NCBI GenBank assembly: GCA_013115125.1 | Contig: JABANN010000134.1 | Location: 1-63,681 of the forward strand | DNA: 63,681 bases | Source: Perkinsus olseni | Lineage: Eukaryota | Reading direction: 5' to 3' | Part shown: piece after piece, positions 2,844 to 47,391 of the stretch | How the letters are laid out: each line of letters starts with the position of its first letter | How positions within the stretch are numbered: the first letter of the stretch is position 1 | Program-made: the position numbers and the translations under genes | The notes under the pieces: model-generated | The model's input: the letters and a program-made list of their open reading frames with translations, nothing else | Database searches by the model: none | What the model was told of the DNA's origin: nothing

Positions 2844-5800
2844 TCATGCCGGAACTCACTCGGAGATCTCCTTCTGGCTGAGGGCCGTCTGTGTGATGAC
2901 GTTGTGGATGCTGAAAGATGGGGCGAGAAGGCCGCTACCCGAGGAGAAGCTTCCCGCTGTCCCCAGCTGTTGAGGAATCATAGTCTGGAAGGCATGCACG
3001 GTGAAGCTGGTTAAAGGGCGCTGCTTACCCGACTGAGGAGGCCCGTGGTAGGGATCGAGGGCGGAGGGGCCATACTGCTGCCTAGAAGCGTAGTTTGCAT
3101 CGTCGTTTCGACGGAAACCGTATGTAAAGAAAAATCCAACTGCCATCATACCGCGGGAATTTGTGGTCAAGAGCATTCCGTCCGACAGCGCTGGATCGAT
3201 GGGGACATCACTATCTACGACTCATGACCTGCTCAACCAAAGATGCATTCAGAAGGAGACTAAGTCGAGATCGCGTTTATGGGCCTAGTCTGCATAGCAT
3301 GCATGATTTGGCCTTCATTGGTGAGAAAGGGAGCAATACACGAAATACTGTGCACTCTCGGAGGTAGAGGGCACGCTTCATTGGAAAACATAGGCCTCCA
3401 TCCATAGAGTCGTCGGCAACAGGCCTTGACTTGCCAAGATACGTGAGCAGTACCGTTTTTCATCACCCGCTGGAGAAGCTTCCCCCTGCACGAGGTGCAT
3501 GCTGTCACCGCCGTCCCATCCCGAAAAGTTATCATATCGTCATCGAATACTGAGAACAGCCTCACACACCTAAATCATACGCTACTTCCGAAATGACGAC
3601 GAACGGATTGAAGTTCACTCATTGAAAACCTCATTTTGAGGATGCTACGCCGGTGAATCACACAATCCCAGCAAAGACCCGACTGAACAGAGAGAAGGCC
3701 AGCCGGGAGTCAACCCAGTCACAGCGAGTGTCACTGCTCAGGATATGCGTTGGGGCATAGCGCATTGAGAACAAGTGTAGTGTTCCCGGCTTGACCAAAC
3801 CGTTCACTAGAGACAGCAGGAAGCTCGCCACCCTTACAACTCGACGGAAACTGTGACATAGGGGAAATGGGTTAAACTCTTGATACTTCTTAAATAAGCC
3901 ATACATTACAACGTGGGTCTCAATAGTAACTACTAGCCTCACGCTAGAGACAGTACACAAGGAGTGCTAAGATATCATTGCCCTATACAGGCCATGGGGA
4001 CAGATCGGCCACAATAATGTATTACAGTAGGCAATCATTGAAAAGGCGGTTCACTACAAAGTCCATGAGCGAGCTCGAACTGATGAGCCGGCCTAGCCAG
4101 TCGGGGCGAGGCAATCCAGAAGAGCTCCGCATCGGTGTCACATCGGAGCCAATCCGTGCCGAAAATAATACCCACGGCTCCACCACATCGAGGAGTGGCG
4201 CCCAGGGTTTTAGCTCGATACGGTACACACAGTTGCAAGGTCAGAAGGGGCCTATCATAGGCCGTCCATGCTATCGTGCAAGGCTTCGGCGTTCTCATAA
4301 GAGCGTTGGCAATGCTTTGCATCACACGTAGGACAGTTCTACGTCAGTGTAAGCACGCGAAAAGAGCAAAATGAAATTGTGGATTCCACGACGTTGACGC
4401 ACATACATCTACCGGTACGCGGTCACCACGGATAATTGTCAACGTGAGCCGAGGAGCGACGAGCCCGCAAGATAAGTATCTTCGCCCAACATATCCAACG
4501 GTTTCAAAGTATCCGCGCCGGTCACTCGGGGATCGTCTCTGATTGCAACTGTGACTAAAATCTAATCCCCAAGTCTAATCAGCTAAGCTTTTTCAACATA
4601 GTGTCCGGTAACGGCTTCAACTACTGGTTCTGCGTGGTTCGAACCGTTCAAATCGAACGTCACTAGCTCCCTGGTCCGCTGTGTCTCTGCCACGAGTCGT
4701 GGCCCACGACTTGGGCAGGTGATTAGCTATAGATAGCTATCAGAAGTATTGAGCTTGACGACTGTGATGGTTGGTTCATAGATGGACGTGAACTCTCTCT
4801 ATTTCAAGATTAAGGCGTTGCCAGCTGGAGCCATCCCCGATGTCACCCCACGCGGGGTCGACGTCCATTCTGTGCTCTTCGTGAAAGGCTTCACCCCGTG
4901 ACCGCGCATCGGATCGTCATTTGCTACTGTTGGTAATCGATGATAATAAGGCTGGCAACACAATAGTAAAGAGAGACACAAGTATCAGATAATACTTGAG
5001 CAGCGATCAACAAGATTGACAAGAGTGCCAGCAATAATCCTCAAGAGAGTCCTCAGAAGACTCTACTTCCTCGCACCGAACACCGCAAGTCTACTCTTTC
5101 AGATTGATCCACATGCACGCACACATCCACGCATGCACACATAAGCTACGCTTTAGCCACCAGCGCCCGCAATAAACTGTCTTCTTCGACGCAATTTGCC
5201 GAACAGACTCCCATATATGGCGTGACCCAGGCCGCGTGGGAGTGGTTCTCATTCGGAGTAGATTGGTGCTCGACGATTTTGGCTCATACTCATAGTTGAT
5301 TAGACTGTAGTTGCGGATTAGTCGCTGTATTCTCTCGTACCCCTCACCACTTTCGTTTTCGCGTTTCGATCATGTTCCACAGTGTGTACTGCACATGGTT
5401 AGGGATTTTGGGGTTGAGGGATGATGCTGCCACTGGTTACAGCCCCTGAGTGCGTTGGTTGTGGTATGGGCGATGCGCCAATAGGCGTGTGATGCCCCGG
5501 TGATAGGCGTTGCGTTGCCGAAGAGAATCGATTCACACGCAGTCAAGTTATAGAGCTATAAGAGCTGAGAGGCCTCGCCAAACATGGTCGAACGGAGTTC
5601 AAAGACTCCTGCCACACAATGTACATCGAATAGAGGCATAACGCATTGTGTAATGAGTGGGGCATATTACGGCCGAATAATTACGCTAGAATTTCACACA
5701 ACGGGAGTGCATCTGCAGTGTTTTCCCTGGGCGTTTCCCAGCCGCGAGCTAATAGCAATGCCTGCCCTGAAATGAGGAGATACTAAGGCCCATGGCACCT

Positions 5801-6328
5801 CCTTTGTCCTGGGCGAGAAGCCCACTTGCATGAAAACCAGTCAATGCTACATCAACACTGCGTTGAGTCTGTTAGTTCCACCGTATCTGTGCAACAAGCC
5901 CTAACTACACGGAAACAATGAAGCCTGTATTGGTCCCTGCCGCAGTTCATAGGAAGAATGAAAGGTTGCCGCCGCTGATGCTCAAATGGATGGTACAAAA
6001 CCTGAGCACTCTGTGGGGGGCAGTTCCGTGCCTCTCCACTCGTTTGGGACCACTCGTTCGAGAATGTTACTCTTCAGAGCTCCCGCCCGGAATGGTGGAG
6101 CCGATTGTGCGTTCGAGACCGGCCAATTCTCGAACCAAAAGGTGGCAAGTGCCTTGTCGGACAACTCGGGCGTTCCGTCCGCAACAGTTGGAGTTACTCC
6201 TCAGTGACGCCCGCTCTCTTGCACGCAAGTACATAGCTGTCTCCTGGCGCGGGCGGAACATGTTTCTCCCTCGAGCAAATGCGTATGGTTTAACTCAGCA
6301 GCAGCCGCATTTCAGTTCTCACTCGACC

Positions 6329-8365
6329 ATGAGACTCAATAATCTCTCGCTCGCCATCTTGCTTCCGGCTGCTGTTGCCTTTGAGCCAGTACAGATCGCC
6401 AATGGTCCAATATCTGGACTTGTGGTACGGAAGAATACTACACTACAACAGCCTATCGTCCAGGATGTGGAGATCTTCTACGGCATCCGCTATGCGGAGC
6501 CTCCTGTAAAAAAACTCAGGTTTCGACCCCCTCAGCCCTACACCTCTGAAAACTGGACCTGCGCCCGCCGCATGGTCACGCCTGGAGCTTCATGTGTCCG
6601 GCTGGCCTTGAACTTCCTAGGGGATACTGGAGATATCATTGGCCAGGAAGACTGCCTCTTCCTCAATGTGCATCGGCCCTCAACTGCGGAGTGTGGTACC
6701 TCCCGACTTCCAGTCATGTTCTGGATTCATCGTGGGGGCTATGTTAATGGTCGTGGACTGTCAGACAATGGTACCGCCTTGGCGGCGACACACAACGTTA
6801 TTGTTGTCACGGTGAACTACAGGCTGGGCCACTTAGGATTCTTTGGTTCCCAGAGCTCTCTTTCACAAGAAGGCACAACTGGCAATTGGGGGACCTTGGA
6901 TACTCAGCTAGGTCTGAAGTGGGTCCAACAGAACATCGAGGCCTTTGGTGGGGATAAGAACAGAGTCATGTTGTTCGGAGAGTCTGCCGGGGCGTTTACT
7001 GTTATGTGGCACATCGCAGCCCCGGGAAGTAAAGGCCTCTTCCACCCGGCCATTATGCAATCTGGAACGACTTCGACTCCGTTGTTCTTCCAGAAAAAGA
7101 CAGACTCTTTCAGATATTACGACTGGGTAGCAACTGAACTTGCGGGCTGTCAAGATGCCGATGATCTCGATTGCCTCCGTCGAGTTGATCCAAAGAAATT
7201 GGCCATACCAGATGGAGTCCGCTTTGACTCGGCTCGTGCGCCAAACTGGGCATCGACGTTGTTCCCCAACTTGCCTGTGGGTCCTACTGTCGACGGAGTA
7301 ACACTACCCGACGTCCCCCTTCGTGTGGTTGAGAAGGGTAATCATAATGACGTCCCACTTATCGTGGGGTTCAACAGGGGCGAAGGCTCGCTGTTCGGCT
7401 TTCTTCTCCCGAGAGTGGTCCCGCGTCTCCGAATGCCTCTAAGAGAGCCGGGGCTTCGCAGAACCCTGGACTACTTCTTGCAGAACGAGACCGCTGCCAA
7501 GGAAATCGAAAAGTTCTATCCCCGGGAGCAATACTCCTCTCTCTACGGCCCCGAAAATGGTCCTTTTGAACAGGCTTTCTCCTTCATGAGAGACTCTCTT
7601 TTTCACTGCCCCGGTAGACAACTCGCCGAAGCTCTGGTGAAGAACGGCAAGTCCTCGACCTGGATGTATTCTTTCGACAAACCAGATCTCTTCGGGCAGC
7701 TTGGAAGCTTTCGGCTTGGAATACTGTCTCCTGCTTACGGGAATTCAACTGTGGCCCAGCTGAGCAACTTCCACTCAGCCGAACTCCCATTCGTGTTCAA
7801 GGACTTCGGCGAAAACCCGGCTAACTTCTCTAGACCTTCGCTATCGTTAATCACTAAGTCATATACGGCTCGTCCTCCTCGCCAGCCCCGTGACGCCTTT
7901 CATCGCATTAGCGATGCCTTCTCCTGCATGTGGACTCATATGGCCTCCCATGGAAGTCCGACGGATCCACAGCAACACTGCCCGGGGTTACCTGATGGAG
8001 CTATCCCTCCGTGGTTGCCTTACAACTCAAGCCTCGATGGCTGCCAGGCTCATGGTGTCTACATGCACATCGGCGATCAGTTAAGCATGCAGGCTTGGAG
8101 ATCCAACAACATCTACCCAGATAATGAGATGCCGTCTATTGAACAATGTCAGTTATGGAATGAGCACTCGTTTGAGTTCCGCAACCTTCGTGCCGATCTA
8201 CCAGGAGTAACGACAGCATCTCCAACTACGCCTAGTCCCGCTCCGAACGCACCGACTCTTGCTCCTATCACGCCGACTCCTGCTCCTACCAGTCCTCTAT
8301 CTTCTGCCCACCGCAGAGGAGGATTTCTCCTGGTATTGTTCGGAATCCTGGCGCTGGTGTTATGA
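6329..8365 (+). CDS. Type-B carboxylesterase/cholinesterase-family enzyme; secreted, probably GPI-anchored; intronless (678 aa)
   Basis: Signal peptide MRLNNLSLAILLPAAVA. Family motifs EDCLFLN, WIHRGGY, NYRLG, nucleophile GESAG, acid GFNRGEG and His NFHSAEL. Ends in a Thr/Pro stalk and hydrophobic tail SSAHRRGGFLLVLFGILALVL. ATG 6329 was chosen because the paralog starts at the equivalent position. Confidence 0.92.
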   Translation: MRLNNLSLAILLPAAVAFEPVQIANGPISGLVVRKNTTLQQPIVQDVEIFYGIRYAEPPVKKLRFRPPQPYTSENWTCARRMVTPGASCVRLALNFLGDTGDIIGQEDCLFLNVHRPSTAECGTSRLPVMFWIHRGGYVNGRGLSDNGTALAATHNVIVVTVNYRLGHLGFFGSQSSLSQEGTTGNWGTLDTQLGLKWVQQNIEAFGGDKNRVMLFGESAGAFTVMWHIAAPGSKGLFHPAIMQSGTTSTPLFFQKKTDSFRYYDWVATELAGCQDADDLDCLRRVDPKKLAIPDGVRFDSARAPNWASTLFPNLPVGPTVDGVTLPDVPLRVVEKGNHNDVPLIVGFNRGEGSLFGFLLPRVVPRLRMPLREPGLRRTLDYFLQNETAAKEIEKFYPREQYSSLYGPENGPFEQAFSFMRDSLFHCPGRQLAEALVKNGKSSTWMYSFDKPDLFGQLGSFRLGILSPAYGNSTVAQLSNFHSAELPFVFKDFGENPANFSRPSLSLITKSYTARPPRQPRDAFHRISDAFSCMWTHMASHGSPTDPQQHCPGLPDGAIPPWLPYNSSLDGCQAHGVYMHIGDQLSMQAWRSNNIYPDNEMPSIEQCQLWNEHSFEFRNLRADLPGVTTASPTTPSPAPNAPTLAPITPTPAPTSPLSSAHRRGGFLLVLFGILALVL

Positions 8366-8899
8366 GCAGAGTGTACCATTGTCTCTTCATCGCTTATCGA
8401 ACACTATCAAGTATCATTCTCTGTTTTCTGAAGATCAAGATTCATCAATGGTTCGACTATCTTCTTTCATCTCACGCTGCGAGCAGAAGGTTTCGTTCTC
8501 ACGAGTGCGTTCTACGAATTTCGTAGTACGAAACCAATGGCACACCGAGTGGGAGAATGTTCCGCGCTGATATGAAAGGTTCGTCAAAGAAGAGTGTTAG
8601 GCCCAGGTAGCAACGGATATACGCATCTGGATGAATGCACGATTCTGCCACAGCACAATCTGATGCATTCGGCGCTAATTATCAATCTTGGGTACTCAAT
8701 GTCACTATTCACGACACGTGGTCTGCTCGACACAAGATCTAGTCGAAAGGAGATTAAGTCGTAACGTGTTCAAGGATCTATACCATTCAGAAGTCTATTT
8801 GGCGGATATGGCCGCCTATATGGGGGTCGAGGATTTCACGTTGGCGAGTGGAGACATCAGCAAATTGGCGGTAGGGTCGAGATGGGGGGATAAAATTGG

Positions 8900-9025: not shown

Positions 9026-10483
9026 TGACCTGGAATCTTCGGACATCCAACTCCGCACGACGATCCGGGAAGCCGAGTGTCGCCGAGGGCACTGACCTCA
9101 GGTCAGGACAGAAACACCCACTTGATCGTCCTTAGAGTGTAAGTCGTGTGTTGCTAAGTCGTAGTAGCTAGGAACAGTTTTGCTCGTCGATCGACGCATA
9201 GATCTCAGAGGCACCCATCAGAAGGCGGAAAAGAAGGAGCATTCTCAGGGCCTCGTGTTCCGGCGGCTCAACGAGGGCATCGCTCGGTCGGGCGTAAGCA
9301 CTGAGGCCACGTATAAAACTGGCTAAAAGGGAGTATGTTGTTCGCGGGAGTTCTATCCCATTTGAAATACGAAATACAACTCCTGAAATGAGCTCGATAC
9401 TTGCTCCTGCAGGTAGATCGACGTGAAATTCGCGGAGCAGAGAGTCAATCCACTGCACCGCGTTCCTGGCTTCAGGAGAGGTCTACGTGCTAGAGCGGCT
9501 CCTCCTCGCGGTAACCGTGTCGGCGGGAGCGGCAAGCTAGGTGTGTGATGACAGTAACTCCCTACGTGGATTGCGCGCACGCCAAGGCCAGTTCTACCAT
9601 CACTATAATTGTCAGACTGAGTCTCTATAGTCTCTTTCCATCTACTCGTACGAGGCCAGTATCTTTATTGTGCTTCGCCGTCCCCTTCAAGCCAGCACGC
9701 ATGCGCATAGCGTGAGTGACCTTTCTCTCTGTCCTCTGAGGTATCGTACCACTTGGACTTTGTCAAAGTCACAAAGTCACTTAAGGTATTCTGGCGGCAT
9801 TGGCTCAGCTTAGACTCTGGGCTAATATCTGCAAACGTATATCGGATAACGGACGTTGTTGCGTTGAAACCCTCACAGGTGGAGCTTGCTCCCCCGCAAT
9901 AGCTTAGCTATTTGGTCGCGTACCCCAATGAGCTGCGGGGAACTCGGGAACCACTCACTTCTGCCGGACTTATTGACTAGTTACTAGTCATACTGCCATA
10001 CTGTATGGCATCTTCATCAGGTATTATCATCCTCATTTGCTAATGAATCACTGGCTCTAAAACGGATTCAGAGTTGTCACTGGGGAGGACCTTGCTGGAG
10101 CCTGGTTAATATGTCAGACGCACGCACTGGTGGGTGATCCAGCTGAGCGCTACAGGCTAGCGAGCGTACGTCTTTGAACATATTGTTAGATTTCGCAAGG
10201 ACTTCGATGGGAGGCTAGTTCCAACAACCTACTAGACAACCGCAACAATTTCGAATGGTTGTCCGGCATCCACAACCCCAGACCTCTGCGTCATGGGACG
10301 TTCGAACGGGAGCGAGTGCCGAGTTGGGAAATGGAGAGGTTCCGTCCGCGCTTCGTCCGTTAGAAATCCTATTTCGCACGCGACTGCATAGCTGTCGCCT
10401 AGCGCGAGCGGACTAGAATTCCCCCCCGAGAAGACGTGTATCATTTAGTTGAACAGCGGCCGAATTTCAGTTTACACTTCATT

Positions 10484-12522
10484 ATGGGACTCAATCACCT
10501 TTCACTCGCCATCTTGCTGCCGGCTGCTGTTGCCTTTCAGCCGGTACAGATCGCCAACGGCCCGATATCTGGACTTGTGGTACAGAAAGATACTACACTA
10601 CAACAGCCTATCGAGTGAGATGTAGAGGTCTTCTTCGGAATCCGCTACGCTCAACCTCCCGTCGGGGAACTCAGGTTCCGACCACCTCAGCCCTACACCT
10701 CTGAGAGTTGGACCTCCACCCGTCCCATGGTTACGCCTGGAACTTCATGTGTCCGAGTGGTCGCGAACTTTCTAGGAGACACCGGTGAAATAGAAGGACA
10801 GGAAGACTGTCTCTTTCTCAATGTGTACAGGCCCTCAACTGCGGAGTGTGGTACCTCCCGACTTCCAGTCATGTTCTGGATTCATCGTGGGGGCTATGTT
10901 AATGGTCGTGGACTGTCAGACAATGGTACCGCCTTGGCGGCGACACACAACGTTATTGTTGTCACGGTGAACTACAGGCTGGGCCACTTACGATTCTTTG
11001 GTTCCCAGAGCTCTCTTTCACAAGAAGGCACAACTGGCAATTGGGGGACCTTGGATACTCAGCTAGGTCTGAAGTGGGTCCAACAGAACATCGAGGCCTT
11101 TGGTGGGGATAAGAACAGAGTCATGTTGTTCGGAGAGTCTGCCGGGGCGTTTACTGTTATGTGGCACACATAATGACACCGGGAAGTAAAGGCCTCTTCC
11201 ACTCGGCCATTATGCAATCTGGAACGACTTCGACTCCGTTGTTCTTCCAGAAAAAGACAGACTCTTTCAGATATTACGACTGGGTAGCAACTGAACTTGC
11301 GGGCTGTCAAGATGCCGATGATCTCGATTGCCTCCGTCGAGTTGATCCAAAGAAATTGGCCATACCAGATGGAGTCCGCTTTGACTCGGCTCGTGCGCCA
11401 AACTGGGCATCGACGTTGTTCCCCAACTTGCCTGTGGGTCCTACTGTCGACGGAGTAACACTACCCGACGTCCCCCTTCGTGTGGTTGAGAAGGGTAATC
11501 ATAATGACGTCCCACTTATCGTGGGGTTCAACAGGGGCGAAGGCTCGCTGTTCGGCTTTCTTCTCCCGAAAGTGGTTCCGGGTCTCCAAATGCCCCTAAC
11601 AGAGCAGGGGCTTCGCAGAACCCTAAACTACTTCCTGCAGAACGAGACCGCTGCCAAGGAAATTGAAAAGTTCTATCCTCTGGGGCAGTATTCCTCTGTC
11701 TACGGTCTTGACAACGGTCCCTTCGAACAGGCTTTCGCCTTCATGAGAGACTCCTTATTCCACTGTCCTGGCAGACAACTCGCCGAAGCTCTGGTGAACA
11801 AGGGCAAGTCTTCGACCTGGATGTATTCTTTCGACAAAGCAGATCTCTTCGGCCCGCTGGGAAGCTTTCGGCTCGGAATACTGTCCCCTGCATACGGGAA
11901 TTTAACTGTGGCCCAGCTGGGCAACTTCCACTCAGCCGAACTCCCATTCGTGTTCAAGGAATTCAGCGAAAACCCGGCTAACTTCTCTAGACCTTCGCTA
12001 TCGTTAATCACTAAGTCATATACGGCCCATCCTCCTCGCCAGCCGGGTGACGCCTTCCATCGCATTAGCGATGCCCTTTCTTGCATGTGGACTCACATGG
12101 CCTCCCACGGAAGTCCGACGGGTCCACAGCAACACTGCCCGGGGTTATCTGATGGAGGTATCCCTTCGTGGTTGCCTTACAACTCAAGCCTCGATGGCTC
12201 CCAGGCTCAGGGTGTCTACATGCACATCGGCGATGAGTTGAGCATGTGGCCTTGGAGATCCAACAACGTCTACCCCGATAATGAGATGCCGTCTATTGAA
12301 CAATGTCAGTTATGGAATGAGCACTCGTTTGAGTTCCGCAACCTCCGTGCCGATCTACCAGGAGTAACGACGGGATCTCCAGCTACGCCTAGTCCCGCCC
12401 CTACCACACCTACTCCTGCTCCCACCACGCCGACTCCTGCTTCTACCAGTCCTATATCCTCGGCCCACCACAGGGAAGGATTCCTTTTGATGTCGTTCGG
12501 AATCCTGGCGCTGCTGTTATGA
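10484..12522 (+). pseudogene. Carboxylesterase paralog with a premature stop and a frameshift
   Basis: Collinear with 6329-8365. In-frame TGA at 10616-10618 (CAG in copy 1) and a 2-nt insertion near 11166-11169 (CACACATAATG) just after GESAG. Downstream homology continues to about 12795. Confidence 0.88.
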
Positions 12523-13201
12523 GCAGAGTGTACCATTGTCTATTCACCGTCTATCACAACACTATCAACTTAGTTGATTCAACCACCATTTTTTGTTTTC
12601 TGAAGATCTAGATTCATCAATCGTTTGAGTATCTTCTTTCATCTCACGCTGCGGGCAGAAGGTTTCGTTCTCATCAATGCGTTCTACGGAGCCCATGAGA
12701 CACCGAGTGGGGGAATGTTCCGCGCTGATCTCAAAGGTCCATCGAAGAAGAGTGTTAGCCTAAGACAGCAGCGGATATACCCATCTGGATGAATGATCTA
12801 ATTGTTAATCTTGGGCGATCAATGTTATTCTTGAAACAAATATAGTCAATCTTGAATGGCACAAGAATAGGCCTGCCAACGTTGTCAAGCAGACCAGTTG
12901 TAGCCTATCAATCTTAAACCAGACGGTGTGATATTCTCGAATCCTAATTGTTATTCATGGTATCAGCACTGTCAGTAATGTCTGCTCAACTGCACTCTCA
13001 ACCTTCCTCAATTGACTATTGCACTCTCAATTGACTCTCCCCACTGCATCACCTTCCTCAGTGGACGAATAATTCTGAGCACTCCTCATGTCGCCTGAGC
13101 ACTTTTTCTGCTCAATTTCCTCACCGTGACCCCGTACTAACGTTCCGGTGTGGTCTTTGACTACACCAGCCACAACGAAATAAAGACTTTAGTCCACGCA
13201 T

Positions 13202-18698: not shown

Positions 18699-19892
18699 TT
18701 ACACCATCATGAAGGGCGCTGAAGGGGCGTCCCTCTTTTGCTCACTCATCGGGACCTCGTAACTAAGACAACGACAATTATGACTGAGCCGCCATAGAGG
18801 GTCCCAAGACTTACGGTGCTATCCCCGACATAGACTGGTTGATAATGGATGCACCAGAATTCTGATTGTGGAACGGGAAGGGGTCCTCATCACGCTCCAC
18901 TTGCTGTCTGACCATCGACGGTACTTGGTCAGTGAAGGTTGTTATACCCTGCATGCCAGCCGACGCAGTCACTCCCAGGTACCGGGAGTACTGACAGGGA
19001 AACACTAACAACGAGAGGAGGCTGCAGAGCAACAAACTCACCTCTGCGATGATCTTGGCAAAGTCAGCATCCTTCCCTTCGAGCAGCTGCGACATCTCCG
19101 CTCTTACTTGATTGTCCAGCATGATGAAAGACTCTTGTGCCATACGGTGCTTCTCGACATTCTGACACCTCTAGCTCCGCAAAGAGAGACGCTTCTCATG
19201 CCTACCCGTGCCAGTCTCTCCTCACCCTTGACATCCTTTTTAGAACGTTTGGAAGCATCCGTCTTGAGGTCCTCAATCTTATGGTTGTAATGGTCGAGGT
19301 CTGCATACGCCCGGTCGCGGTCCTTCAACTTCTGCTGCAAGTCCGCGTTGCGCTGCACTAGCTTCTGTGCCTCCCCCACAGCCGCCTGTAGCTGCGGTCG
19401 AGAGGCCTGAGCCGACTGCTGACACCGGCTCAGCTGGTCAGCGAAGAGGGAGATGGACGGTGCATACTGAGGAACGTGAGCAACTGCTGATGGCACGCAA
19501 GAAATGGCGACTCACCCCGCTTTCCTGGGTAGAACTGGGCGTGCTCTCAGAGGGAGTTACCACGTCTCTAGATTGCTTGACAATATCCAACTGGGTGGCG
19601 GCCATTTGATCGGTCAGATTGAGCAGCTTCACCAACTGCTGGTGAAAAGCCTGAAGAGGCGAGCGATGCCTTGAGTACGCCGCTACACTTTGCCCTAGAC
19701 CTTGCCTGAGCCTTAGCCGCATGGTCCAGTAACGCAGCCCTTTGCTTCTCCAGCGGGTCAGATGATATCGCCTTGACACCAATAACCTGAGCATCAGAGA
19801 TGCGCCCACAGTGTGACTTGGAGGAGCCTCTGGCTGCTGTCACGTACCTTGTCGGTGAGATTCCGCCAAGTCTTGCTTGCAAATACTACCAT
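18699..19892 (-). CDS. BAR-like coiled-coil protein, paralog B
   Basis: MVVFASKTWRNLTDK|VIGVKAISSDPLEKQR...RDRAYADLDHYNHKIEDLK..KGEERLAR|NVEKHRMAQESF...|YSRYLG. The 3' end is uncertain. Confidence 0.75.
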
Positions 19893-20596: not shown

Positions 20597-22015
20597 TCAA
20601 TGCTTGACGGCAAGGCACGGGTTCAAGTCGAAGGATGAACGGTCGGCGATCGCTGGGCTCGTCGGCTGGCCCAGGCGCTCAGGTGTCGCTGTGGACTCCA
20701 CTGTGCGGAGTAAAACCGGTGGGCTAGGTAGTGAAGCAGCTGGATGACCGGAGGCCAACCTTCACCTGAAGATGACAACACTCGAGGATCATCACAACTA
20801 CCAGGAGGCGGGGAATTTACGGTATTATGAATCGCAGGTCAGGAGGCGGAGCGGCCTTTCTTACATTTACACGAAGAGGCTCCCAAGTCACGCCGCCCTC
20901 AAGTCACGGAATGGCTTACGATGCGAGCCCAAGCATTGATTGCTCAATAATGGATGCACCGGAATTCTGATTGTGGAAGGGGAAGGGATCTTCATCACGC
21001 TCCACTTGCTGTCTGACCATCGACGGTACTTGCTCAGTGAAGGTTGTTATACCCTGCATCCCCGCAAAGGCTGAGACTCCCAGGTACCGAGAGTACTGAC
21101 AAGAGGTAGGCACTGCGAAGAAGCCTTGTCGACTGTATCGCGCACCTGGGAGAGTATCTTGGCGAAGTCAGCCTCCGTCCCTTCGAGCAGCTGCGACATC
21201 TCCACTCTGACTCTCTCATCCAGCTGGATGAAGCGCACTTCCGCCATACGGTGTTTCGCCACATTCTGACACCTCTAGCTCCACAGGGAATGGCGCTTGC
21301 CTCACCTACCCGTGCCAGTCTTTCCTCTCCCTTGACATCCTTTTTAGAACGTTTGGAAGCATCCGCCTTGAGGTCCTCAATCTTATGGTTGTAATGGTCG
21401 AGGTCTGCATACGCCCGGTCGCGGTCCTTCAACTTCTGCTGCAAGTCCGCGTTGCGCTGCACTAGCTTCTGTGCCTCCCCCACAGCCGCCTGTAGCTGCG
21501 GTCGCAACGCCTGGAGAGACTGTTCACATCTGCTCAGCTGGTCAGCGAAGAGGCATATGGCCTGTGCATACTGAGAACAAGGCAAATCCTCGGTACCGTC
21601 AGCCTTCCGAGAGTATACTACTACCCCAGCCCCGCTGTCGGCAGTAGAGCAAAGCGTGCTCGCCTCCTCGTCCTTGGCAGGAGGAGCGATCACTTCCCGC
21701 GACTGTCTTGTTATCTCCAGCTGTGCGCTGCGGATCTCGTCCGTCAGATTGGAGAGTCGTACCAACTGCTTGTACAGGGCCTGATAAGTCGAGCTAGCCG
21801 TAACCGAGGCCACAACGGCTCACCTCAGCCTTGACGGCGTGCTCCAGGACTGCCGCCCTCTGCTTCTCCAACGGATCGAACGGAATCGACTTAACGCCAA
21901 CAACCTGGCAAATCGACAGTGGCCACCAGCTAACGGTTGAGGCGCAGCTGCGAGCCCACCCCTTCACTACCTTAGCAGTGAGATTTCGCCATGTCCGGCT
22001 CGCAAAAACAACCAT
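20597..22015 (-). CDS. BAR-like coiled-coil protein, paralog C
   Basis: MVVFASRTWRNLTAK|VVGVKSIPFDPLEKQR; same motifs and intron positions as B. The 3' end is uncertain. Confidence 0.75.
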
Positions 22016-22248: not shown

Positions 22249-23509
22249 TCAGGCAACCGGAGGCAGCTGCGGATAGGCCGAGTCACCATCGCCAACTACT
22301 TGGACGTCAGCAGGAATAGGAGTGTCTTTTTTCGGTCCTTCCTCAGCAGGAATTGGAGTATCTTTTTTCGGTCCTTCCTCAGCGGGAATTGGAGTGTCTT
22401 TTTTCGCTCCTTCTTCAGCGGGAATAGGAGCGTCTTTCTTAGCTTCTTCCTCTACCAGGCCAGGGATCTCTCTGCTGTACGTGTCCACATCCTTGCCGTC
22501 TCCTGCCGCTATCACGCCGATGTATCGTGAGTACTGAAGACAGTACCATGTACGGTCGAGGACAACACGATAGCCCCCCCACGCCACTGCTGGTGTTGAC
22601 TACCTCCGCTATGACCCTGGCGATTTCCCCAACCTTCTGCCCGACGAGTCCTTTCATATCGTCACGCACCTCCCGATCCAACGCGGTGAAGCGCTCTTGG
22701 GCCATGCGATGCTTATCAACGTTCTGACATGTGGCAACCGAAGAGTTCGACGAGAAGCCTTCACACGGATGACCTATTTCACAACAGTACTCCCTGCCTA
22801 CCCTAGCTAGCCTGTCATCCTCCTTCGGATTGGGCTTTGATTTCTTAGCCAGATCAGCCTTGAGATCAGTGACTTTTTGGTTATAGTGGTTCAGCTCGTC
22901 AAAGGCTCGATCGCGACTCCTCAGTTTCTCCTGCAGGGCACCGGTACGTTTGACCAGTTCCTGCGCCGCTATCTTGGTCTTGTCCAGCTGCGGCCGGGCA
23001 TCACGCGCGGTTTTGTTCTGCTCTGCCACACGGTCCACGAATGTAGCTGTTGCCCGGCTGTACTGAAGGATAAGTAACCAATACATCTCCATGAAGAATC
23101 CACTTGACTCTAACGCCCATTCATCGCGCCAGGTTCACGTTGACGGATGCAATAACAAGACAGCGAGCACCCTCCGTACCCCGTCTGTGGGCTCCTGAGC
23201 TCCTTTCCTGTCTCTGCCCACTAACGTATCCTCATCCTCCTCAGGAGCATCGATGAGCTGAATGTCTTTTAGTATATCCTGACGTACTTTGGTAACCTCA
23301 TCCGTCAAAGTGAGCAGACGAACGATGTGCTGATGTAGGGCCTGGAGACACGAGGAAGGTTACGCATAGTACCAGCCCAGGCAAGATCAAGAGGCCCCCG
23401 CTATTCTCACTACCTGAACTCGTCCTGCATAGTTGGCCAGCTCCTTTCTCTCCTTCTCCAACGGATCGGAAGTGATTGCCTGCACACCCATAACCTGATC
23501 AGCAACCAT
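22249..23509 (-). CDS. BAR-like coiled-coil protein, paralog D, with a 12-aa repeat tail
   Basis: VMGVQAITSDPLEKER...RDRAFDELNHYNQKVTDLK..KEDDRLAR|NVDKHRMAQERF|YSRYIG. The start may be further upstream (ATG 23613). Confidence 0.75.
22308..22450 (-). repeat. Coding tandem repeat, 36 nt x about 4 (KKDTPIPAEEGP)
   Basis: Near-identical 36-nt units such as cagcaggaataggagtgtcttttttcggtccttcct. Confidence 0.9.
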
Positions 23510-23967
23510 CTCTTCAACATAACACACCGACAGCAGGCGCGACTGAAGCAGTTCCAACCCCAACGCCTCTAAGAATGTCGAATAGGAGAAACGCAGGGCT
23601 CATTCCCTCCAGATATCCACCCTACTACAGTATTCGTCAAATTCCGCCAATGCCTACTGGAGAACACTACCATTACTGTCTAATAAAAACAATAGAACGC
23701 TGAATAACGAAAAGATGGAGGATAACTCAGCAGCCTGTCGCAAGCACCCTTCATTCTTGTAGGGTAACCTCCACTAAAGCCCATTGATGCCAGGACAACA
23801 ACAAAACAAAGTCGCATACTTCAAACGGGGAAACACACCGTCTTGTCTACAACGACAAGATTCCATTAAAACACACTTTGGTGATAATAACTAACCCGCA
23901 GGGTCGTCAATAGTGACGACTGCTGGGCATATGAATAGAGGCTTGCGAAGAACCCTTCAGTCTCCTT

Positions 23968-24964
23968 TTACTCATCTTGAACGATGGTAACCTCAGCGCC
24001 TCCGATGACTCTGTGACGCTCGCCCTCATCCTGCTCGTCATCATGATGATGCCTGTGATTCTCCTCCCCATCACTCGAAGACGCAGAGCCTTCACGATGA
24101 TGACGTCTGCCGAAGAGACCACGGCGACTACTGTGGTGACCACCTTCGGACGCAGAGCTGCCGCTGCTGCTGCTCGAAGATGACGACGAAGAGCTGCTAG
24201 AATCGTGGTCAGTAGAGCGCTCGGCCATGAGGACAGGCTCCGGAACATCTCTCATACCACGGCGAACCTCACGCGGGACGTTCTTGACCAGAACCGACGC
24301 GCTCTCACCAGCAGGGGCGCAGAAACCGAGGAAGCGGGAATACTGAAAGGAGAAAAGATGAGGTAATCGAAGTTGGATCGAGGGAGAGGTAAGAGCTAGC
24401 GAAAGCAGATTGAGGCTCTTACCGGCGAAAGCATCTTGGCGTAGTCAGCACCGGGGCACTCCACCGACTGATACACTTTCATAGCAGTACCACGATCAAT
24501 AGCTCCGAAATCCTCTTCAGCCTCGAGACGCCTGTAATGGGCAGCAACCTGAGTGGATAAGCAATGTAGAGGGAATGACAAGACTAACCGAGATATGCTC
24601 ACCGCATCAGCCCTAGAAAGAGCACGGTCCATCTTGGGCTGAGCGCTTTCGACGGCATTACGCCAGGCTTCTGCCTGCGTTAGATACATCTTGCAGGCTT
24701 CACGGAACTGAGCAACAAGAGAGCAAAATGGACCATAGAGTCTACCAAGACAAGTCCGTCTCTTACGTGATCGCTCTCGCGGTCGCCAGCCTCATTAATG
24801 AGCTGCTCCTCGAATAAACGAGCAACCTCTGTCTGGGCCTCGGCCAACTTCTCCATGTAGTGCTTGACCTTCTCCATCTCATCCTTCAAGTGCTCAGAAC
24901 GTTCAGCACGCTGCGGCAAACTCTCCTTGAAATTCTCGAGTCTGTCGCCGTCCATGTGCTTCAT
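23968..24964 (-). CDS. BAR-like paralog E, internally shortened, with a Ser/His-rich tail
   Basis: MKHMDGDRLENFKESLP...KLAEAQTEVARLF..|FREACKMYL..AQPKMDRALSRADA|VAAHYRRLEAEEDF..ADYAKMLSP|YSRFLG; poly-Ser and His-rich C-terminus. Confidence 0.65.
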
Positions 24965-26151
24965 GGTTTTGCAAGGCTCCGAGCACAGGTCCCTGAGCAT
25001 GATGACAGAGCCAAGGCTTTGTTGGGGTCCTTGCAGGAGATTGGTGATTACGTTAGCAAGCTTGACGAGGCGCAGCAGGAGGCCGCCAGGCTGTTCCGGA
25101 ACGAGCTCATGGCGCCGACGAGTTGTGCCATCAATCATGATGTAACGAGCTTGGGGTTACTTGAGGGGTCTCTTCTTAGCGTAGTTTTTCTCATTCGTGG
25201 TCCGAGTCGCAGACCTTGCATCGGTCTTGCTGTGACGGTATTCGTGGGAGCACTAACGATAGTAGGACCAGTTCAGAATTGACGAACTCGATAGGCCTGA
25301 AAGAGCCAATATATGAAAAGGGGCAGCTACTTAATATTCTTCTTCTCAGTACTCTCAAGCATGCACGTTATTTGTGAATCAATTAAACGCTATCCACGAG
25401 TCGATTCTAGACGCCCAGTGTGAGCTCGCTGGTGCGGTATGCTTCGCTGAGGAGATGGTGGATCGGAACCATGATATACAACGTCGCCTCCTGCAACGGG
25501 ACAGGAGTAATGGTCAACTTAAGCGATGTATCATGAACGTTGAGGAGCTCTCACAGAAGGCTTCCAAACACAAGGGCCGCGACTATGACCGGCAGATCGT
25601 CGAGGTACGGCTACTCAAGCTTCTCGTGTGCTACTGCATCAAAGGCGGCTCTCAGGCACTTGACAAATACCACGCAGCTGAGCGAGAGGCAGAGACTTTG
25701 GACCGTTGTGTCACGGCGGATCTCAAGGCACTTATTGAACACCAGAACACTGACTACGCGAGGGTCTTGGCACCGGTAGGCAGCTCTTACGATGGTCGAT
25801 GTGACGCATTCTTCTGGTCAGTTCTCTCGGTATCTTGGGGTCGCTGCATCGACTGAAGCCAACACGGCCTATATACTGGCAAAGAAGGTACCTAACATAC
25901 TTCGCTCCGCCGTCCACGAAGATTTAACCTCTAATCGGCCGCCTTGTGTACCGAAGCCGAACGAGGATGAGGAGGGCGTTTCGGCTGCTGGCGGTACCAT
26001 CGATGCTCGTCTAGAGGAGACGCCTGATGATGCATGCAGGAGAAGGGCTAGCGGCACCGCGAGCCAACCTGATAATAGTGCCGAGGCTCCCGGTGGAGGC
26101 TCCGCATCTATTGATGTCACCGAGGACGGTCGGCAGGGACCAAGTTGTTAG
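24963..26151 (+). CDS. BAR-like paralog F, inverted relative to the array; start codon ambiguous
   Basis: Exon FARLRAQVP...KLDEAQQEAARLF aligns with paralog E. Later exons YSQACTLFVNQL..RDRSNGQLKRC..|ALDKYHAAE..TDYARVLAP|FSRYLG. ATG 24963 is one base out of frame with the first exon. Confidence 0.65.
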
Positions 26152-27527
26152 ATTAAGCATTGCCCGAGAGTCGAGGGGCGTCACGCACCCGGTGACTGAG
26201 TCAGCTTATCATTTTGTAGTAGTCCCTAGAAGGCGACTGAGACAGCCGTGTACATTATCCGCCCATAATTTTTAACTGCCCACTCGAGAGCTGGGAGTTC
26301 GCAAAAGTCGAACCCTTGTGTGTTTTTGTGCCAGATAGACGACTCACTCTGTGCTCTCCCGTTGATGTCTTGTTAAATCTATTGTATACTCATACGGGAG
26401 TTTCCTTGCCAAGCGGTTGGGTTTCAGTGTAAAAATTCAGCAGCACGGTGGCTCTTGTCGAGTAGAAACAAGGAGGTGGCGCTTCACTCAGTAACTGGCT
26501 CTGCAGGCGACTTCAAGTTGCCTTAGTCATCTTGTCTCCTCACTTTCATCTGGTACGAGGGTAAGATGATGCTGAATGCTGTCGCAGGGGTCGAACGCTT
26601 GCTCTTGGCTTTCCTGGTTGGTCGGGATTGCTCTCACTGCGAGTTTTCTTGGATTCTCGCGAACCCATTCACGTCAAGCTTCTTTCAAAACACGCCTACT
26701 AAACTAGTCTTTTTGAACGGTTAGTTCTCTTGAATTGGGCATTACGATTTTCACAGACCTGCGAGCTTCTTCCAAATGCTTCATCTTCTCCGAACCTTTT
26801 CCTGCTGCTCGAGACCCACAAGAGAGGTCCGCCACAGGAAGTCCTTCGCGACCTGAGAGTCTTCGTCATATGCTCAACGCGAAGTTGACAGCAGTAACAG
26901 CTTAGTTGTGATGACTGTAAGACGCTAGTGTCACAATGTCTCGTTTTGCACAATAGCTGGGCAAGCTACTGCTGTACACGAAGTCATCATTGTATTGTAT
27001 TTAGAGTGAGTGAACGCTATTGTCATCTGCAGGTTTGATTCTTTGTTGTTGTTTTTACTGTTATAAGAATGGATTTTGCTGAAGAAGGCGATTGGAGGAT
27101 CCTCTCCTGTAGACAGGGTAGCAGCGGAAGATGCGGATCTCTGCCGTGACGGTGAGGTCACCTCATTACTTCTCGTGGATTCGTTCTCTGCCATAGAGAA
27201 AAATCGAAACTCGTAACTGAAAATCTCGGACCACCGCAGGTAACGGGCCGCGGCCACCAGGTTGGGCCAACGCCAATCTAACACAACAACAAGCATCGAA
27301 AATAAGGTCTTTCACTCAAAGAAGATGTGTTATAAAAATAAGAATTCCACCACACAACGGCAGACCTAGTGGTGCGGGCCAAGACGATGAGGTGACGATG
27401 AACTGTAGCGAGACTAATGCCCCGCGAACTAAAATCTTTCAAACTCGCCAAGAGCAGACATTCGGGATAAGCCAGCACTGCTCTTGGCCTGTCTCTTGCA
27501 CAAATCGTTATGATGAGTAGTAGTCCC

Positions 27528-28908
27528 TTAGCATGTCGACTCAACCTTCGCCACAGGGGTGGTGGTTGAAGCACTACTACATTCGCCTCTGTCAGTCAAG
27601 TCTTTACTAGCAGCTTCTGCCGCCTTCTTGTTAGCCCTCACTTGCTCCTCCCTCAGCGCCTTGTTACGATCCACAGCTTCGGGTATTTCCTTGGTAAAGA
27701 CTGGTACGCACGAGGCTGAGGACTGGACGTTAGTCGCTATGTAAAGGCACATCTGAGAGAGTGCTCCATCACGATAGAAAGGGGAAAAGTCCAACTTCTA
27801 TATTCAGACTTTTCTCCAGGAGATTTACGACCATATGCGCCGAGATACCCACCAACTGCCAGCCTCAACAATTCCCATGTAGTTTTACGTTCTCCAGTAT
27901 TTGAGAAAAGTCCGCTTGACGGCCCTCCAACAGCGAAGTGACTGCCGATCGACAGGAGTCGTCGATGCTTTGGAAGTTAGACACGGCATCCTCCTGCTTG
28001 ACCATGTTCTGACGAAGAAGAGCAAGTCACCCGCTTCTCCCGACGCCACAGTAGCACTACCCTCTTTATTCTGTCCTCCAGTGCCTTCTTGGGCTTCTTA
28101 GCTTGCTCTTCGTTCAACGCAGAGAGCTTCTCTTTGTAATGGTCCACAACCTCAGCGGCCTTGTCCCTTTCGTTGAACTGTGTGACCAGGTTAGTAAGTC
28201 TCTCTACCAGCGTCTCCGCTACCGCAATGGAGTCGTTGAGCAAGGACCTAGTGTTCTCCTTAGAGGCTCCCATTATCTCTATTTGACTGGCAAATAGCTC
28301 TCCCACCTGGGCATACTGAAGGCGCAAGACAACAAACATTCACAGGCCGCAGCGAGACAGAGACTCTCTCACCTGAGGGGAGGTGTCGCTGTAATTAACC
28401 GGAAAATCGCCCTCGCTGAGAGGGATGAGGAAGCTCCTTGCCTGCCGTACTACATCATCTCGAATAGCACCCATCTCATCGACATTCCTTTGGAAGTTGA
28501 CGAGTGTGGCGTGCAGATCCTGAAGAGCACGGCTGCTTTCAATAATATAATCCTCTGCCACCCAGAGACTCTCGAGGGTTGAGATGGTGACGAAGTCACG
28601 ATGCAAAAAAAGTCAAAGGGCAGCCTAGCTGTGCTCCTCACTGAGAAGCCCTCAGTGACCTCAAACACACCGTTGCTTGGGCGTAACGAGTACTACTGTC
28701 TCGGTTCCAGCCCTACACCCGGTCATTGATGCCCACCTTTGCTTTGGCAAGATACTCCGTCACTTCTTCTCGCGCTTTTTGCAGAGGATCCTTCTTGTCT
28801 GGCTTCACTCCGAATACCTGTCAAGTCGGTCAATGATTCCGCACCGTGGACTACCGCCTAGCATACCGAGTCTTTGAAGTCTCTAACGGTCTTACTATAG
28901 AATGGCAT
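27528..28908 (-). CDS. BAR-like coiled-coil protein, paralog G
   Basis: MPFYSKTVRDFKDS..VFGVKPDKKDPLQKAR...FNERDKAAEVVDHYKEKLSALNEEQAKKPKKALEDRIKR|..|MCLYIA. Confidence 0.75.
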
Positions 28909-45542: not shown

Positions 45543-47391
45543 CTAATCATCCTTCTGCCCGCATATCCACTTGAGGAACTTCGGCGTCTTCAAAACCTGC
45601 AGGCCGTGAGAAGTGGGCATCCTCGGGTAGACGTCCGTAAAAAAGTAGTAGATGTGGCCGGCTAGGATGCCCTGTAGGTGGTCAGCTAGCTGCCCTCCCA
45701 TGATCTAAAACCGAGTCTTGAAACGTATCTTAGGTTGAAGCGTGGCCTACCAGAGAAATCCCGGCGAGTATCCAAGGTAGATAAGGGGCCTTCACGGTGA
45801 AGGCGATGACGTGTACCCGTGCACCCGGATTCCGCCGGGCCCAGACGTACCTGCGGCGGGCGACTAGACGGAAGATGGTTGGGAGCGTCTCTCACGTCAT
45901 GACGTCGATGATGGCTCCAGAGTAGAAGTTGGAGAAGTGTCCAGTAAGGAAGGATAAGCCCAGGAGCATGAACATCGAGACGAGAAGCATGTACACGAAA
46001 TCCCCAGATCTGAAGAGGAGGGCTCGGGAGGGCGGGAGAATGGGAGAAACTACCTTTGCCGGAAGACAACTTCTTCCAGTTGTGAACAGTAGAAGTACAT
46101 GACATAAACGTTCCACATGAAGCCGACTCCTAGGTCACCATAGAAGAGGAAGCATGTGAACAATCGCCACCATTGGCCGTGCTCCCATACCATCTCCCTG
46201 ACAAGTATTGGGTGATACGAACGAGTCATCCGGAGTCTCGCATCATAGCGATCGTAGAGTTCGGGTTCTCCTCGACAGCTTCGAGTTCCACTACAACTAT
46301 GCTGCCATTTGCGCAAGTTCAACCCAGTTGCACAGTGAAGAGAAAGTGTAACGGAGAAACACTGGCTGAAGCGCAGGTGATAGCCCATTGCCTAGAAGGA
46401 AATTCCTCTTCTCAATTCGCCAGACCAAATCTCAACAAACCAAATCTCAACAACTTTCACGAGGGGCTCTACACCTTTTCCCGAGCAAATAAAATATTTT
46501 TCCATGAGATTTAAAAGAGTATGGGAAACCGAATTTTGTTTTAAAATACTTCACATCCACTTTAAATACTTTAGCAAATTTAAAAGACTCATGTCACGCA
46601 AATCAAATCCCACTCACCATCCAACTTGAAATATTCTACAGTAGTTGTCAAATTGAAGGGAGCGCGCGAAGCTGCGCGCATCCTCGTTGTTCATTGCGTG
46701 CCTCGTCGTGAAATTTTCATACCGTAGCTTTTGCCTCAATATGATCAACGCCAGTGGCGTCGGCATTGAAGGCCGGGCCTTCTAAGGCACAACATTCGCT
46801 GAGGTTAACATGCGATATGATATATAATGTAATTCATGGAGTAGTTCCGGCATCTCGCACGTGGCAGCGCTCCTCCAATTCGAATCATTGACGTATGGTT
46901 CCGGTTGACGAGAAGCGACAGCTGTAGAGCTCCCCCGTGTTTCATCAGCTCAGAGTATGTGTTCAAGTTGCGGGAAGGAGGTCGCAGTAGCAAAATGATT
47001 TAGATATCGAAATTGGATCAAAATCGATTTAAATAGAGTGGCACGTGTTAAATCTAATTTGCTCATAAATTCAATTTGGGTGACAAAACGAATTTGGTTT
47101 GACAATTCTTTAATTCCCATGACACTCGCTAAATTGCTATCAAAACCGTTTAAATCACACGAAAAAATATTTTATTTGGTCGGGAAAAGGTGTAGAAAGA
47201 GGGAAGCTCAGCAGGAGAATACTACCAGTTGAAGTAGAGGGAGAATGGTGATATGAACTCGAGGGTGCATGCCGCCATGAGGCCGAAGGATATGCATAGC
47301 ATGCCCTGATTAGAAGGCGATGCAACGACCAGCACGGGACTCAGCTCCCTACCTTGGTCACCGGGGGTATGTTACCGATCAGGTTATCCAT
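45543..47391 (-). CDS. Derlin (DER1 family) ERAD membrane protein
   Basis: MDNLIGNIPPVTK|GMLCISFG..ISPFSLYFNW|..GQWWRLFTCFLFYG..LEE..YVWARRNP..APYLPW..GILAGHIYYFFTDVYP. Intron 2 is about 1 kb. Confidence 0.9.
46472..47192. mobile_element. MITE / non-autonomous DNA transposon with ~43-bp TIRs and a TA target duplication
   Basis: Left TA|CACCTTTTCCCGAGCAAATAAAATATTTTTCCATGAGATTTAAA; the right end is its imperfect reverse complement TTTAAATCACACGAAAAAATATTTTATTTGGTCGGGAAAAGGTG|TA. AT-rich, no long ORF. Confidence 0.85.

What the first reader, a model, noticed from the sequence alone, without database searches (positions are those of the whole stretch)
24770..25141. Head-to-head paralogs diverge from one CATG palindrome with no intergenic space
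Seen: minus-strand E (DRLENFKESLPQRAERSEHLKDEMEKVKHYMEKLAEAQTEVARLFEEQL) and plus-strand F (HGFARLRAQVPEHDDRAKALLGSLQEIGDYVSKLDEAQQEAARLFRNEL) align without gaps and run away from about 24955-24965, inside the inverted repeat CCATG-TGCTT-CATGG. CATG at 24962-24965 gives an in-frame ATG for E. It also gives a plus-strand ATG that needs one more T in the following T-run to read MVFARL, like the MVVFAS start of B and C. Both genes lack the family's first exon. Inference: either two genes whose 5' UTRs and promoters lie antisense inside each other, or a fold-back inversion that truncated both.
Basis: partly seen in the sequence, partly recalled or inferred. Interest (0 to 1): 0.75.

Follow-up and report, generated by a model that had tools for sequence, protein, structure and literature searches.

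The report
Inversion that broke two neighbouring genes
In some strains of the clam parasite Perkinsus olseni a 2-kilobase piece of DNA has flipped and cut two neighbouring membrane-shaping genes near their starts, so the apparent back-to-back gene pair is a recent breakage scar that the cell still transcribes and splices across, not a new kind of gene layout.

Summary
The head-to-head layout is real but is one end of a recent 2,131-bp inversion (24967-27097) in a tandem array of eight BAR-domain paralogues of Perkinsus olseni. The missing starts of both genes sit at the other breakpoint: E's first 9 codons at 27069-27095 (+), F's first 32 at 27194-27099 (-). Public proteins of other strains and species carry head and body joined. 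One DNA run holds the window's form in one contig, T-run unchanged; another holds the uninverted form with no substitution in 4 kb. Two RNA runs carry the inversion: minus-strand RNA starts at F's old 5' end, crosses both junctions, loses seven weak new introns on F's antisense strand and ends in correctly spliced E; F's own introns are never seen spliced. Most likely F is knocked out and E, short of 11 disordered residues, trails a long leader; whether E protein is made is open. No overlapping promoters, no fold-back, no missing T. The scan had noted the array on this window, not the inversion, and nothing alike on other DNA. Known kind; a neat natural experiment.

The parts
24967..27097 (.). 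Inverted segment, 2,131 bp: body of F, the old F-E intergenic region and the head of E
   Evidence: Run X6 contig lies 23800-24966 (+), 27097-24967 (-), 27097-27800 (+); run X1 contig lies straight through
24966..24967 (.). Junction 1 (the head-to-head point): E body joined to F body; no shared bases; 2 bases of E's uninverted sequence are absent
   Evidence: tables 5 and 8 (record positions 3492 to 3495); codon count matches P0006
27096..27098 (.). Junction 2: E head meets F head; 1-2 shared bases, net 1 base lost
   Evidence: 27097 used twice in X6; 'both' = 1
23968..24966 (-). Body of gene E: exons 24966-24767, 24707-24603, 24548-24423, 24342-23968; 267 aa from the ATG at 24964; BAR-like, about 50 residues short at the helix 2-3 tip
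   Evidence: Three introns seen spliced in X7 and X8; 166 of 166 compared residues equal to P0006; alignment A1
27069..27097 (+). Head of gene E: native ATG and first 9 codons; now runs into a 26-codon dead-end frame ending 27149
   Evidence: 9 of 9 residues equal to P0006 1-9
27097..27218 (-). Head of gene F: AG acceptor at 27218-27217, ATG at 27194, first 32 codons
   Evidence: 32 of 32 residues equal to P0005 318-349; X8 RNA contig begins at 27219 with no cover at 27220-27307
24967..26151 (+). Body of gene F without start: exons 24967-25141, 25350-25604, 25656-25775, 25822-26151 (model from public proteins); not seen spliced in RNA
   Evidence: 56/58, 85/85, 39/40, 106/109 residues equal to P0005/P0004; no GT..AG plus-strand joint among 12 joints listed
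26931..27194 (-). New chimeric reading frame, 87 aa: F head plus 54 residues read from the inverted segment
   Evidence: covered by RNA contigs X7 record 17 and X8 record 20; protein not shown
23826..27219 (-). Read-through RNA region from F's old 5' end across both junctions to E's 3' end (tiled by several contigs; one continuous molecule is inferred)
   Evidence: tables 5, 7, 8
24993..25051 (-). New intron, 59 nt, GT..AG, on the antisense strand of F exon 1; in the same contig as E's three native introns; its acceptor lies 28 nt before E's ATG 24964
   Evidence: X7 depth 116.4, X8 depth 27
25297..26068 (-). Six more new minus-strand introns: 25297-25352, 25491-25554, 25678-25790, 25853-25900 (X8 only), 25892-25951, 26024-26068 (X7 only)
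   Evidence: table 5; all GT..AG, 45-113 nt, weaker than native sites
24952..24966 (.).
   Evidence: same in X6
26264..26265 (.). 20 bases present in the uninverted allele (X6) and absent from the window, X1, X7, X8; the only other difference between the alleles in 4 kb
   Evidence: table 4
25242..25330 (.). Piece of a multicopy repeat inside F intron 1 (208 nt)
   Evidence: Summed depth up to about 1,800-2,200 against 87 in DNA runs, about 9,400 in X7; no Rfam match

Best explanation
Ancestrally all eight BAR paralogues run head to tail on the minus strand. Very recently, in one near-clonal lineage, the DNA broke twice, in codon 33 of F and around codons 10-11 of E, and the 2,131 bp between were rejoined the other way round with almost blunt ends (net 3 bases lost), as end-joining repair does (inferred; the repair pathway is not shown). 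The bodies of E and F now point away from each other at 24966/7 and their heads face each other at 27097 (shown). Transcription from F's old 5' end still runs on the minus strand, reads an 87-codon junk frame, runs antisense through the whole of F, where the spliceosome removes chance GT..AG segments of normal Perkinsus size, and ends at E's 3' end (pieces shown; a single molecule inferred). F's body has no start and is not seen spliced in sense: F is most likely null. E keeps 267 of 278 residues, losing only a disordered head, but sits behind 1.9-2.3 kb of leader with 28-32 upstream ATGs, so it is probably poorly translated unless a spliced leader is added at one of the new acceptors (not shown). 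The six other paralogues may buffer the loss (inferred).
For: Heads and bodies map to opposite junctions for P0006 and P0005; G-F fused gene models P0004 and P0005 from two other assemblies put G and F on one strand; P. marinus P0003 and the unnamed P0013 have continuous N-termini. X6: uninverted in one 10,761-base contig, 0 substitutions; 10,761 minus 10,738 = 20 + 2 + 1, and both codon counts restore the registers of P0006 and P0005. X1, X7, X8 (three studies) bridge both junctions in the window's orientation. All 10 skip joints in RNA are CT..AC, none GT..AG; F intron sequence is present unspliced in RNA contigs. New splice sites score below native ones (donor 1.6-6.0, acceptor 1.6-6.3, native medians 7.3) and such pairs are as dense on the antisense strand of other genes (1.7-4.8 per kb against 5.1 for F). 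Residues 1-12 of the P. marinus E model have pLDDT under 50, helix 1 starts at 16.
Against: X1 may be the source of the window, so it is not independent; X7 and X8 may be the same cultured strain. All four runs are contigs: no strand, level or true 5' end, rare forms dropped; absence of F sense splicing is not proof of silence. No RNA run of an uninverted strain was laid, so normal expression of F, and absence of the antisense introns there, are not shown. The splice-site thresholds for the density comparison were taken from the weakest new site, which favours F, and F antisense is still at the top of the range. The two breakpoints both touch short palindromes (5.5% and 2.7% of positions by chance, noticed after the fact), so a structure-prompted break is not excluded.
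Confidence: 0.9

Rival explanations
1. Same inversion, but E is rescued: the spliced leader is trans-spliced to a new acceptor born on F's antisense strand (for example the one 28 nt before ATG 24964), or the in-frame ATG at 25131 is used, giving a working E that is 11 residues short or has a new 36-residue head.
For: The 24993-25051 intron is the path kept in both RNA runs and leaves an open 37-codon frame into E; E's lost residues are predicted disordered; Perkinsus adds a 21-22 nt leader at AG acceptors (PMC9399869, passages); a leader-sized side branch may be trimmed from contigs (recalled).
Against: No leader-like loose end at any new acceptor among the 14 loose ends listed; RNA depth upstream of the junction is about that of E's body in both runs, as read-through alone predicts.
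Confidence: 0.25
2. Two intact divergent genes with promoters and 5' UTRs antisense inside each other, F needing one more T or a non-ATG start.
For: E has in-frame ATGs at 24964 and 24955; F's frame is open back to 24818.
Against: True starts found at 27069 and 27194; four T's confirmed; tandem intact allele exists; F not spliced in sense.
Confidence: 0.02
3. Assembly error at the junction.
For: Other assemblies show the tandem order (P0004-P0006).
Against: Separately assembled contigs of X1 (10,738 bases, depth 86.8, 0 differences), X7 and X8 cross both junctions as in the window.
Confidence: 0.01
4. Fold-back inversion seeded by the CCATG/CATGG hairpin.
For: The hairpin (-4.0 kcal/mol) ends exactly at junction 1.
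Against: No duplicated arms, no copy-number change (depth flat at 86.8), a reciprocal second junction, and E/F similarity is ancient. The hairpin might at most have favoured the break.
Confidence: 0.01

Closest known systems
Gene-breaking polymorphic inversions with fusion transcripts, e.g. the human chromosome 19 inversion that disrupts ZNF257 (PMC4591017; abstract and outline seen)
   Same: Polymorphic within a species, made by end joining without long inverted repeats, breakpoint inside a gene, new transcript made only from the inverted allele.
   Different: Here 2.1 kb instead of 415 kb, both breaks lie in the first coding exons of two adjacent paralogues, no alternative allele shows in the carriers' contigs, and the read-through crosses the whole inverted segment and both junctions in a trans-splicing protist.
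BAR-domain superfamily, classical/N-BAR type (BIN2 4avm, APPL1 2q12, arfaptin 1i49, amphiphysin 4atm, Galdieria 3caz)
   Same: The family model (paralogue C orthologue P0024) has three long helices after a short leading helix, and all 39 listed Foldseek rows name a BAR-superfamily protein or BAR-containing coat.
   Different: No Pfam BAR score reaches the cut-off (best 19.2 against 28.5). E and F lack the leading helix; E also lacks about 50 residues at the tip and its own model gives only weak BAR matches (best E 0.24).
Bidirectional (head-to-head) gene pairs with overlapping 5' ends (recalled)
   Same: Divergent reading frames with no spacer.
   Different: Here neither frame has its own start at the divergence point and only one strand is seen spliced.

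Membership tests
Simple two-break polymorphic inversion | Two reciprocal junctions with the segment reversed and no copy change | tested here: met
   joints 24966/27097 and 24967/27097, flat depth
Simple two-break polymorphic inversion | Both orientations exist in the species; ancestral state known | tested here: met
   X6 uninverted; X1, X7, X8 inverted; intact proteins P0003, P0005, P0006, P0013
End-joining (NHEJ/MMEJ-like) origin | No long inverted homology at the breaks; 0-few shared bases and small losses | tested here: met
   0 and 1-2 shared bases, net 3 bases lost
End-joining (NHEJ/MMEJ-like) origin | The organism has the pathway (Ku, ligase IV or Pol theta) | not tested
   No genome held; PMC8062965 passage gives only a general statement
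Fold-back inversion | Palindromic duplication of sequence about the junction | tested here: not met
Bidirectional gene pair with overlapping 5' ends | Both genes have their own start at the divergence point and both are transcribed in sense | tested here: not met
   F has no start there; no plus-strand splice joint in two RNA runs; contigs cannot prove absence
BAR-domain superfamily | Three-helix BAR fold | tested here: met
   For the family via P0024: pLDDT 82.8, Foldseek top rows all BAR; profile hit to 3caz E 0.00096, ranked second of 34. For E alone inconclusive; F not modelled
BAR-domain superfamily | Pfam BAR above the curated cut-off | tested here: not met
   0 of 24 proteins or frames scanned; best P0010 19.2 bits
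BAR-domain superfamily | Crescent dimer that binds or bends membranes | not tested
   No complex job run; no assay
Spliced-leader trans-spliced mRNA | Leader joined at an AG acceptor upstream of the start | tested here: inconclusive
   X8 contig starts 3 bases upstream of the acceptor of F's head; no leader letters seen there or at the new acceptors

The most novel reading that the evidence does not exclude
Trans-splicing rescues a decapitated gene at once: after the inversion, a chance splice acceptor on the antisense strand of paralogue F takes the spliced leader (or a 36-codon head read from antisense F is used), so E is expressed from F's old transcription unit. That would show, on alleles with no substitution between them, that Perkinsus genes need no own promoter or evolved 5' end and that gene structure can be remade in one step.
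Probability: 0.2. Interest if true: 0.7.

Novelty: new member of a known kind. Interest (0 to 1): 0.4.

Why it matters
It removes a seemingly exotic gene layout and replaces it with a clean natural experiment: two near-identical alleles differing by one inversion. They show that about 1.1 kb of antisense coding DNA yields seven normal-sized introns as soon as it is transcribed, which bears on how loosely Perkinsus defines introns and how new ones could arise, and they let one ask whether its genes are transcribed singly or as polycistrons resolved by the spliced leader (asserted for Perkinsus in PMC4858233, doubted for dinoflagellates in PMC7789003). Practically, the junction is a strain marker in a lineage with no nearby substitutions, and a warning that at least two public RNA data sets come from cells in which two conserved BAR genes are broken.

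Tried and rejected
Own genome: none held, so no genome-wide search for further inversions or repair genes. Pfam on 7 window frames, 5 and 12 proteins: nothing above cut-off. ESM Atlas on P0003: no feature hit, structural rows uninformative. Foldseek on the E model: no match at E up to 0.001. Rfam on 23500-28000: one chance-level row, 18.8 bits against 45. Extra-T, misassembly, fold-back and overlapping-promoter readings rejected. Homologous recombination between E and F as the cause rejected: they were direct, not inverted, copies, 49% alike, and the breaks are not at equivalent codons. A pre-existing antisense gene over F considered: its splice sites are weak and no denser than on other antisense strands, though no uninverted RNA was available to test it. 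dN/dS could not be computed: no sister-species DNA was reachable. One of my 30 hand-placed introns (H, third) had wrong ends and was dropped from the splice model. Scan look-ups by words and by P0006 found nothing. Literature searches found no paper on this locus; the library lacks most subscription journals and the P. olseni genome paper was not among the listings. No supplements were opened.

Full report
1. The observation. The two peptides, their frames, the divergence without spacer and the CCATG-TGCTT-CATGG repeat (24952-24966) are as described. The first exons of E and F share 15 of 50 residues and 74 of 150 bases: old paralogues, not mirror copies. F's frame is open from 24818 but has no ATG until near the end of the exon. 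The window is Perkinsus olseni: its exons match P. olseni proteins at 97-100% and P. marinus at about 80%. Eight paralogues A-H lie between about 17100 and 30450; seven are on the minus strand, F alone on the plus strand.

2. The missing starts. P0006 (P. olseni, another assembly) equals the window's E at every compared residue, but its residues 1-9 map to 27069-27095 on the plus strand while residues 12-77 map to 24964-24767 on the minus strand. P0005 does the reverse for F: residues 318-349 equal the minus-strand frame from the ATG at 27194 (32 of 32), and after one residue the protein goes on in the plus-strand frame from 24968 (56 of 58). P0004 and P0005 are gene models that fuse G and F, which is only possible if G and F lie on one strand. 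P. marinus P0003 has E's head and body joined (153 of 193 compared residues identical), and the unnamed P0013 has an F-like head running into the F body (35 of 56 in the body). So the tandem order is ancestral and the window carries an inversion.

3. Real allele or error. Four of 24 listed runs were laid on 23800-27800. X1 (DNA, possibly the window's source) spans the stretch in one 10,738-base contig, depth 86.8, no difference, T-run of four. X6 (DNA, another sample of the same study, also flagged as a possible source) has one 10,761-base contig that runs 23800-24966 forward, 27097-24967 reversed, 27097-27800 forward, with no substitution, two extra bases at the first break, base 27097 used twice and 20 extra bases after 26264. 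Counting bases, this layout gives E eleven codons before the ATG at 24964 and F thirty-three before 24968, the registers of P0006 and P0005. X7 and X8, of two other studies, have E's three introns removed, so they are RNA-derived; they cross both junctions in the window's orientation and show no uninverted joint. The inversion is therefore real, very recent, and present in 3 of the 4 samples laid, which may be one cultured lineage. P0026 lies on a contig of the window's length and is treated as not independent.

4. How it arose. Junction 1 has no shared bases, junction 2 one or two; net loss is three bases. No inverted repeat links the two sites. This is the pattern of two breaks rejoined by end joining (general knowledge; the pathway was not checked, and the one passage found is generic, PMC8062965). 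Both were noticed after the fact and are a hint at most.

5. What it does. Of 12 joints listed, two are X6's inversion joints and ten are skips in RNA, all CT..AC, that is minus-strand introns: E's three and seven new ones within 24993-26068, five in both runs, one only in X8, one only in X7. All seven are GT..AG and 45-113 nt long; 30 hand-placed native introns have median 54. With a small model from 29 of those 30 introns, the new donors score 1.6-6.0 and acceptors 1.6-6.3 against leave-one-out medians of 7.3 (somewhat inflated by the close pair B/C), and at the weakest new site's thresholds non-overlapping candidate introns number 5.1 per kb on antisense F and 1.7-4.8 per kb on eight other antisense regions. 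They look like chance sites used because the strand is now transcribed. None of F's own three modelled introns appears as a joint, and sequence of all three lies under RNA cover. In X8 one contig ends at 27308 behind G and the next starts at 27219, three bases upstream of the acceptor that lies 22 bases before F's ATG, with no cover between; in X7 one contig runs across this gap. The Perkinsus leader ends in CAAG (PMC9399869), so the start at CAG is suggestive, not proof. The simplest reading is one minus-strand unit from F's old 5' end to E's 3' end near 23826. It opens with an 87-codon frame, and puts 1,855-2,252 bases and 28-32 ATGs before E's remaining ATG. With the 24993-25051 intron removed, an ATG at 25131 is in frame with E and would add 36 residues. 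E's lost head is predicted disordered. Hence: F probably null, E structurally spared but translationally handicapped, rescue by leader addition possible and unshown. Limits: contigs give no strand, level or true ends, drop rare forms, and a contig across two genes shows no single transcript; no uninverted RNA was laid.

6. The proteins. A model of the C orthologue P0024 on an 18-row alignment (pLDDT 82.8) has a short leading helix and long helices, and Foldseek lists only BAR-superfamily structures in the 39 rows shown, ten at E up to 0.001. Pfam does not call them. E and F lack the leading helix and the first two introns, and E lacks about 50 residues at the tip, in P. marinus too; its own model matches BAR folds only weakly. 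Membrane shaping is inferred from the fold, not tested.

7. Known or new. Inversions that break a gene and create a new transcript are known (PMC4591017, abstract and outline seen). I found no paper on this locus or on BAR genes or inversions of P. olseni (subscription journals mostly missing). Papers seen: PMC9399869, PMC8062965, PMC4858233, PMC7789003 as passages; the rest as search listings. PMC4858233 states that Perkinsus resolves polycistrons by leader addition; PMC7789003 finds no evidence of polycistrons in dinoflagellates; these alleles can help decide. The scan had noted the array on this window (e1-7181402) but not the inversion, and nothing alike elsewhere.

8. Verdict. Observation mostly right, overlapping-promoter reading wrong, inversion reading right in kind but not fold-back. 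New member of a known kind. Interest 0.4; 0.7 if trans-splicing is shown to rescue E (probability 0.2).

Noticed in passing
window 25242-25330: Piece of a multicopy repeat inside F's unusually long first intron; roughly ten or more divergent copies by DNA depth and very abundant in RNA run X7; no Rfam match, no second copy in the window.
   Followed up: partly
window 24548-24707 (gene E): E lacks about 50 residues at the helix 2-3 tip of the BAR fold, in P. marinus as well: a conserved short-armed BAR variant.
   Followed up: partly
window 26264: A 20-base indel is the only other difference between the inverted and uninverted alleles in 4 kb; it lies inside the inverted segment and may belong to the same event.
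   Followed up: partly
proteins P0017-P0023: Distant relatives from unnamed metagenome and Logan records share the family's DPL, RDRAY and HY..K motifs but pass no Pfam cut-off: an unnamed protist BAR family.
   Followed up: partly
window 19651-19705: Second intron of paralogue B appears to have a GC donor (my model only; public model P0010 places it otherwise).
   Followed up: no
window 18810-19471 and 20915-21575: Paralogues B and C are a recent duplicate pair, 84% alike in DNA, introns included.
   Followed up: no
window 6221-8637 and 10376-12795: Two copies, 89% alike, of a long intron-poor carboxylesterase-like gene (label recalled from motifs); the second is split over two frames.
   Followed up: no
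proteins P0004, P0005, P0026: Public gene models fuse neighbouring array members (G+F, C+B), so counts and lengths of this family in databases are unreliable.
   Followed up: partly
window 22307-22452: Short tandem repeat in the tail of paralogue D encoding proline- and glutamate-rich units.
   Followed up: no
window 46468-46515 and 47149-47196: A 48-base inverted repeat pair, 92% alike, about 680 bases apart; possibly ends of a small mobile element.
   Followed up: no
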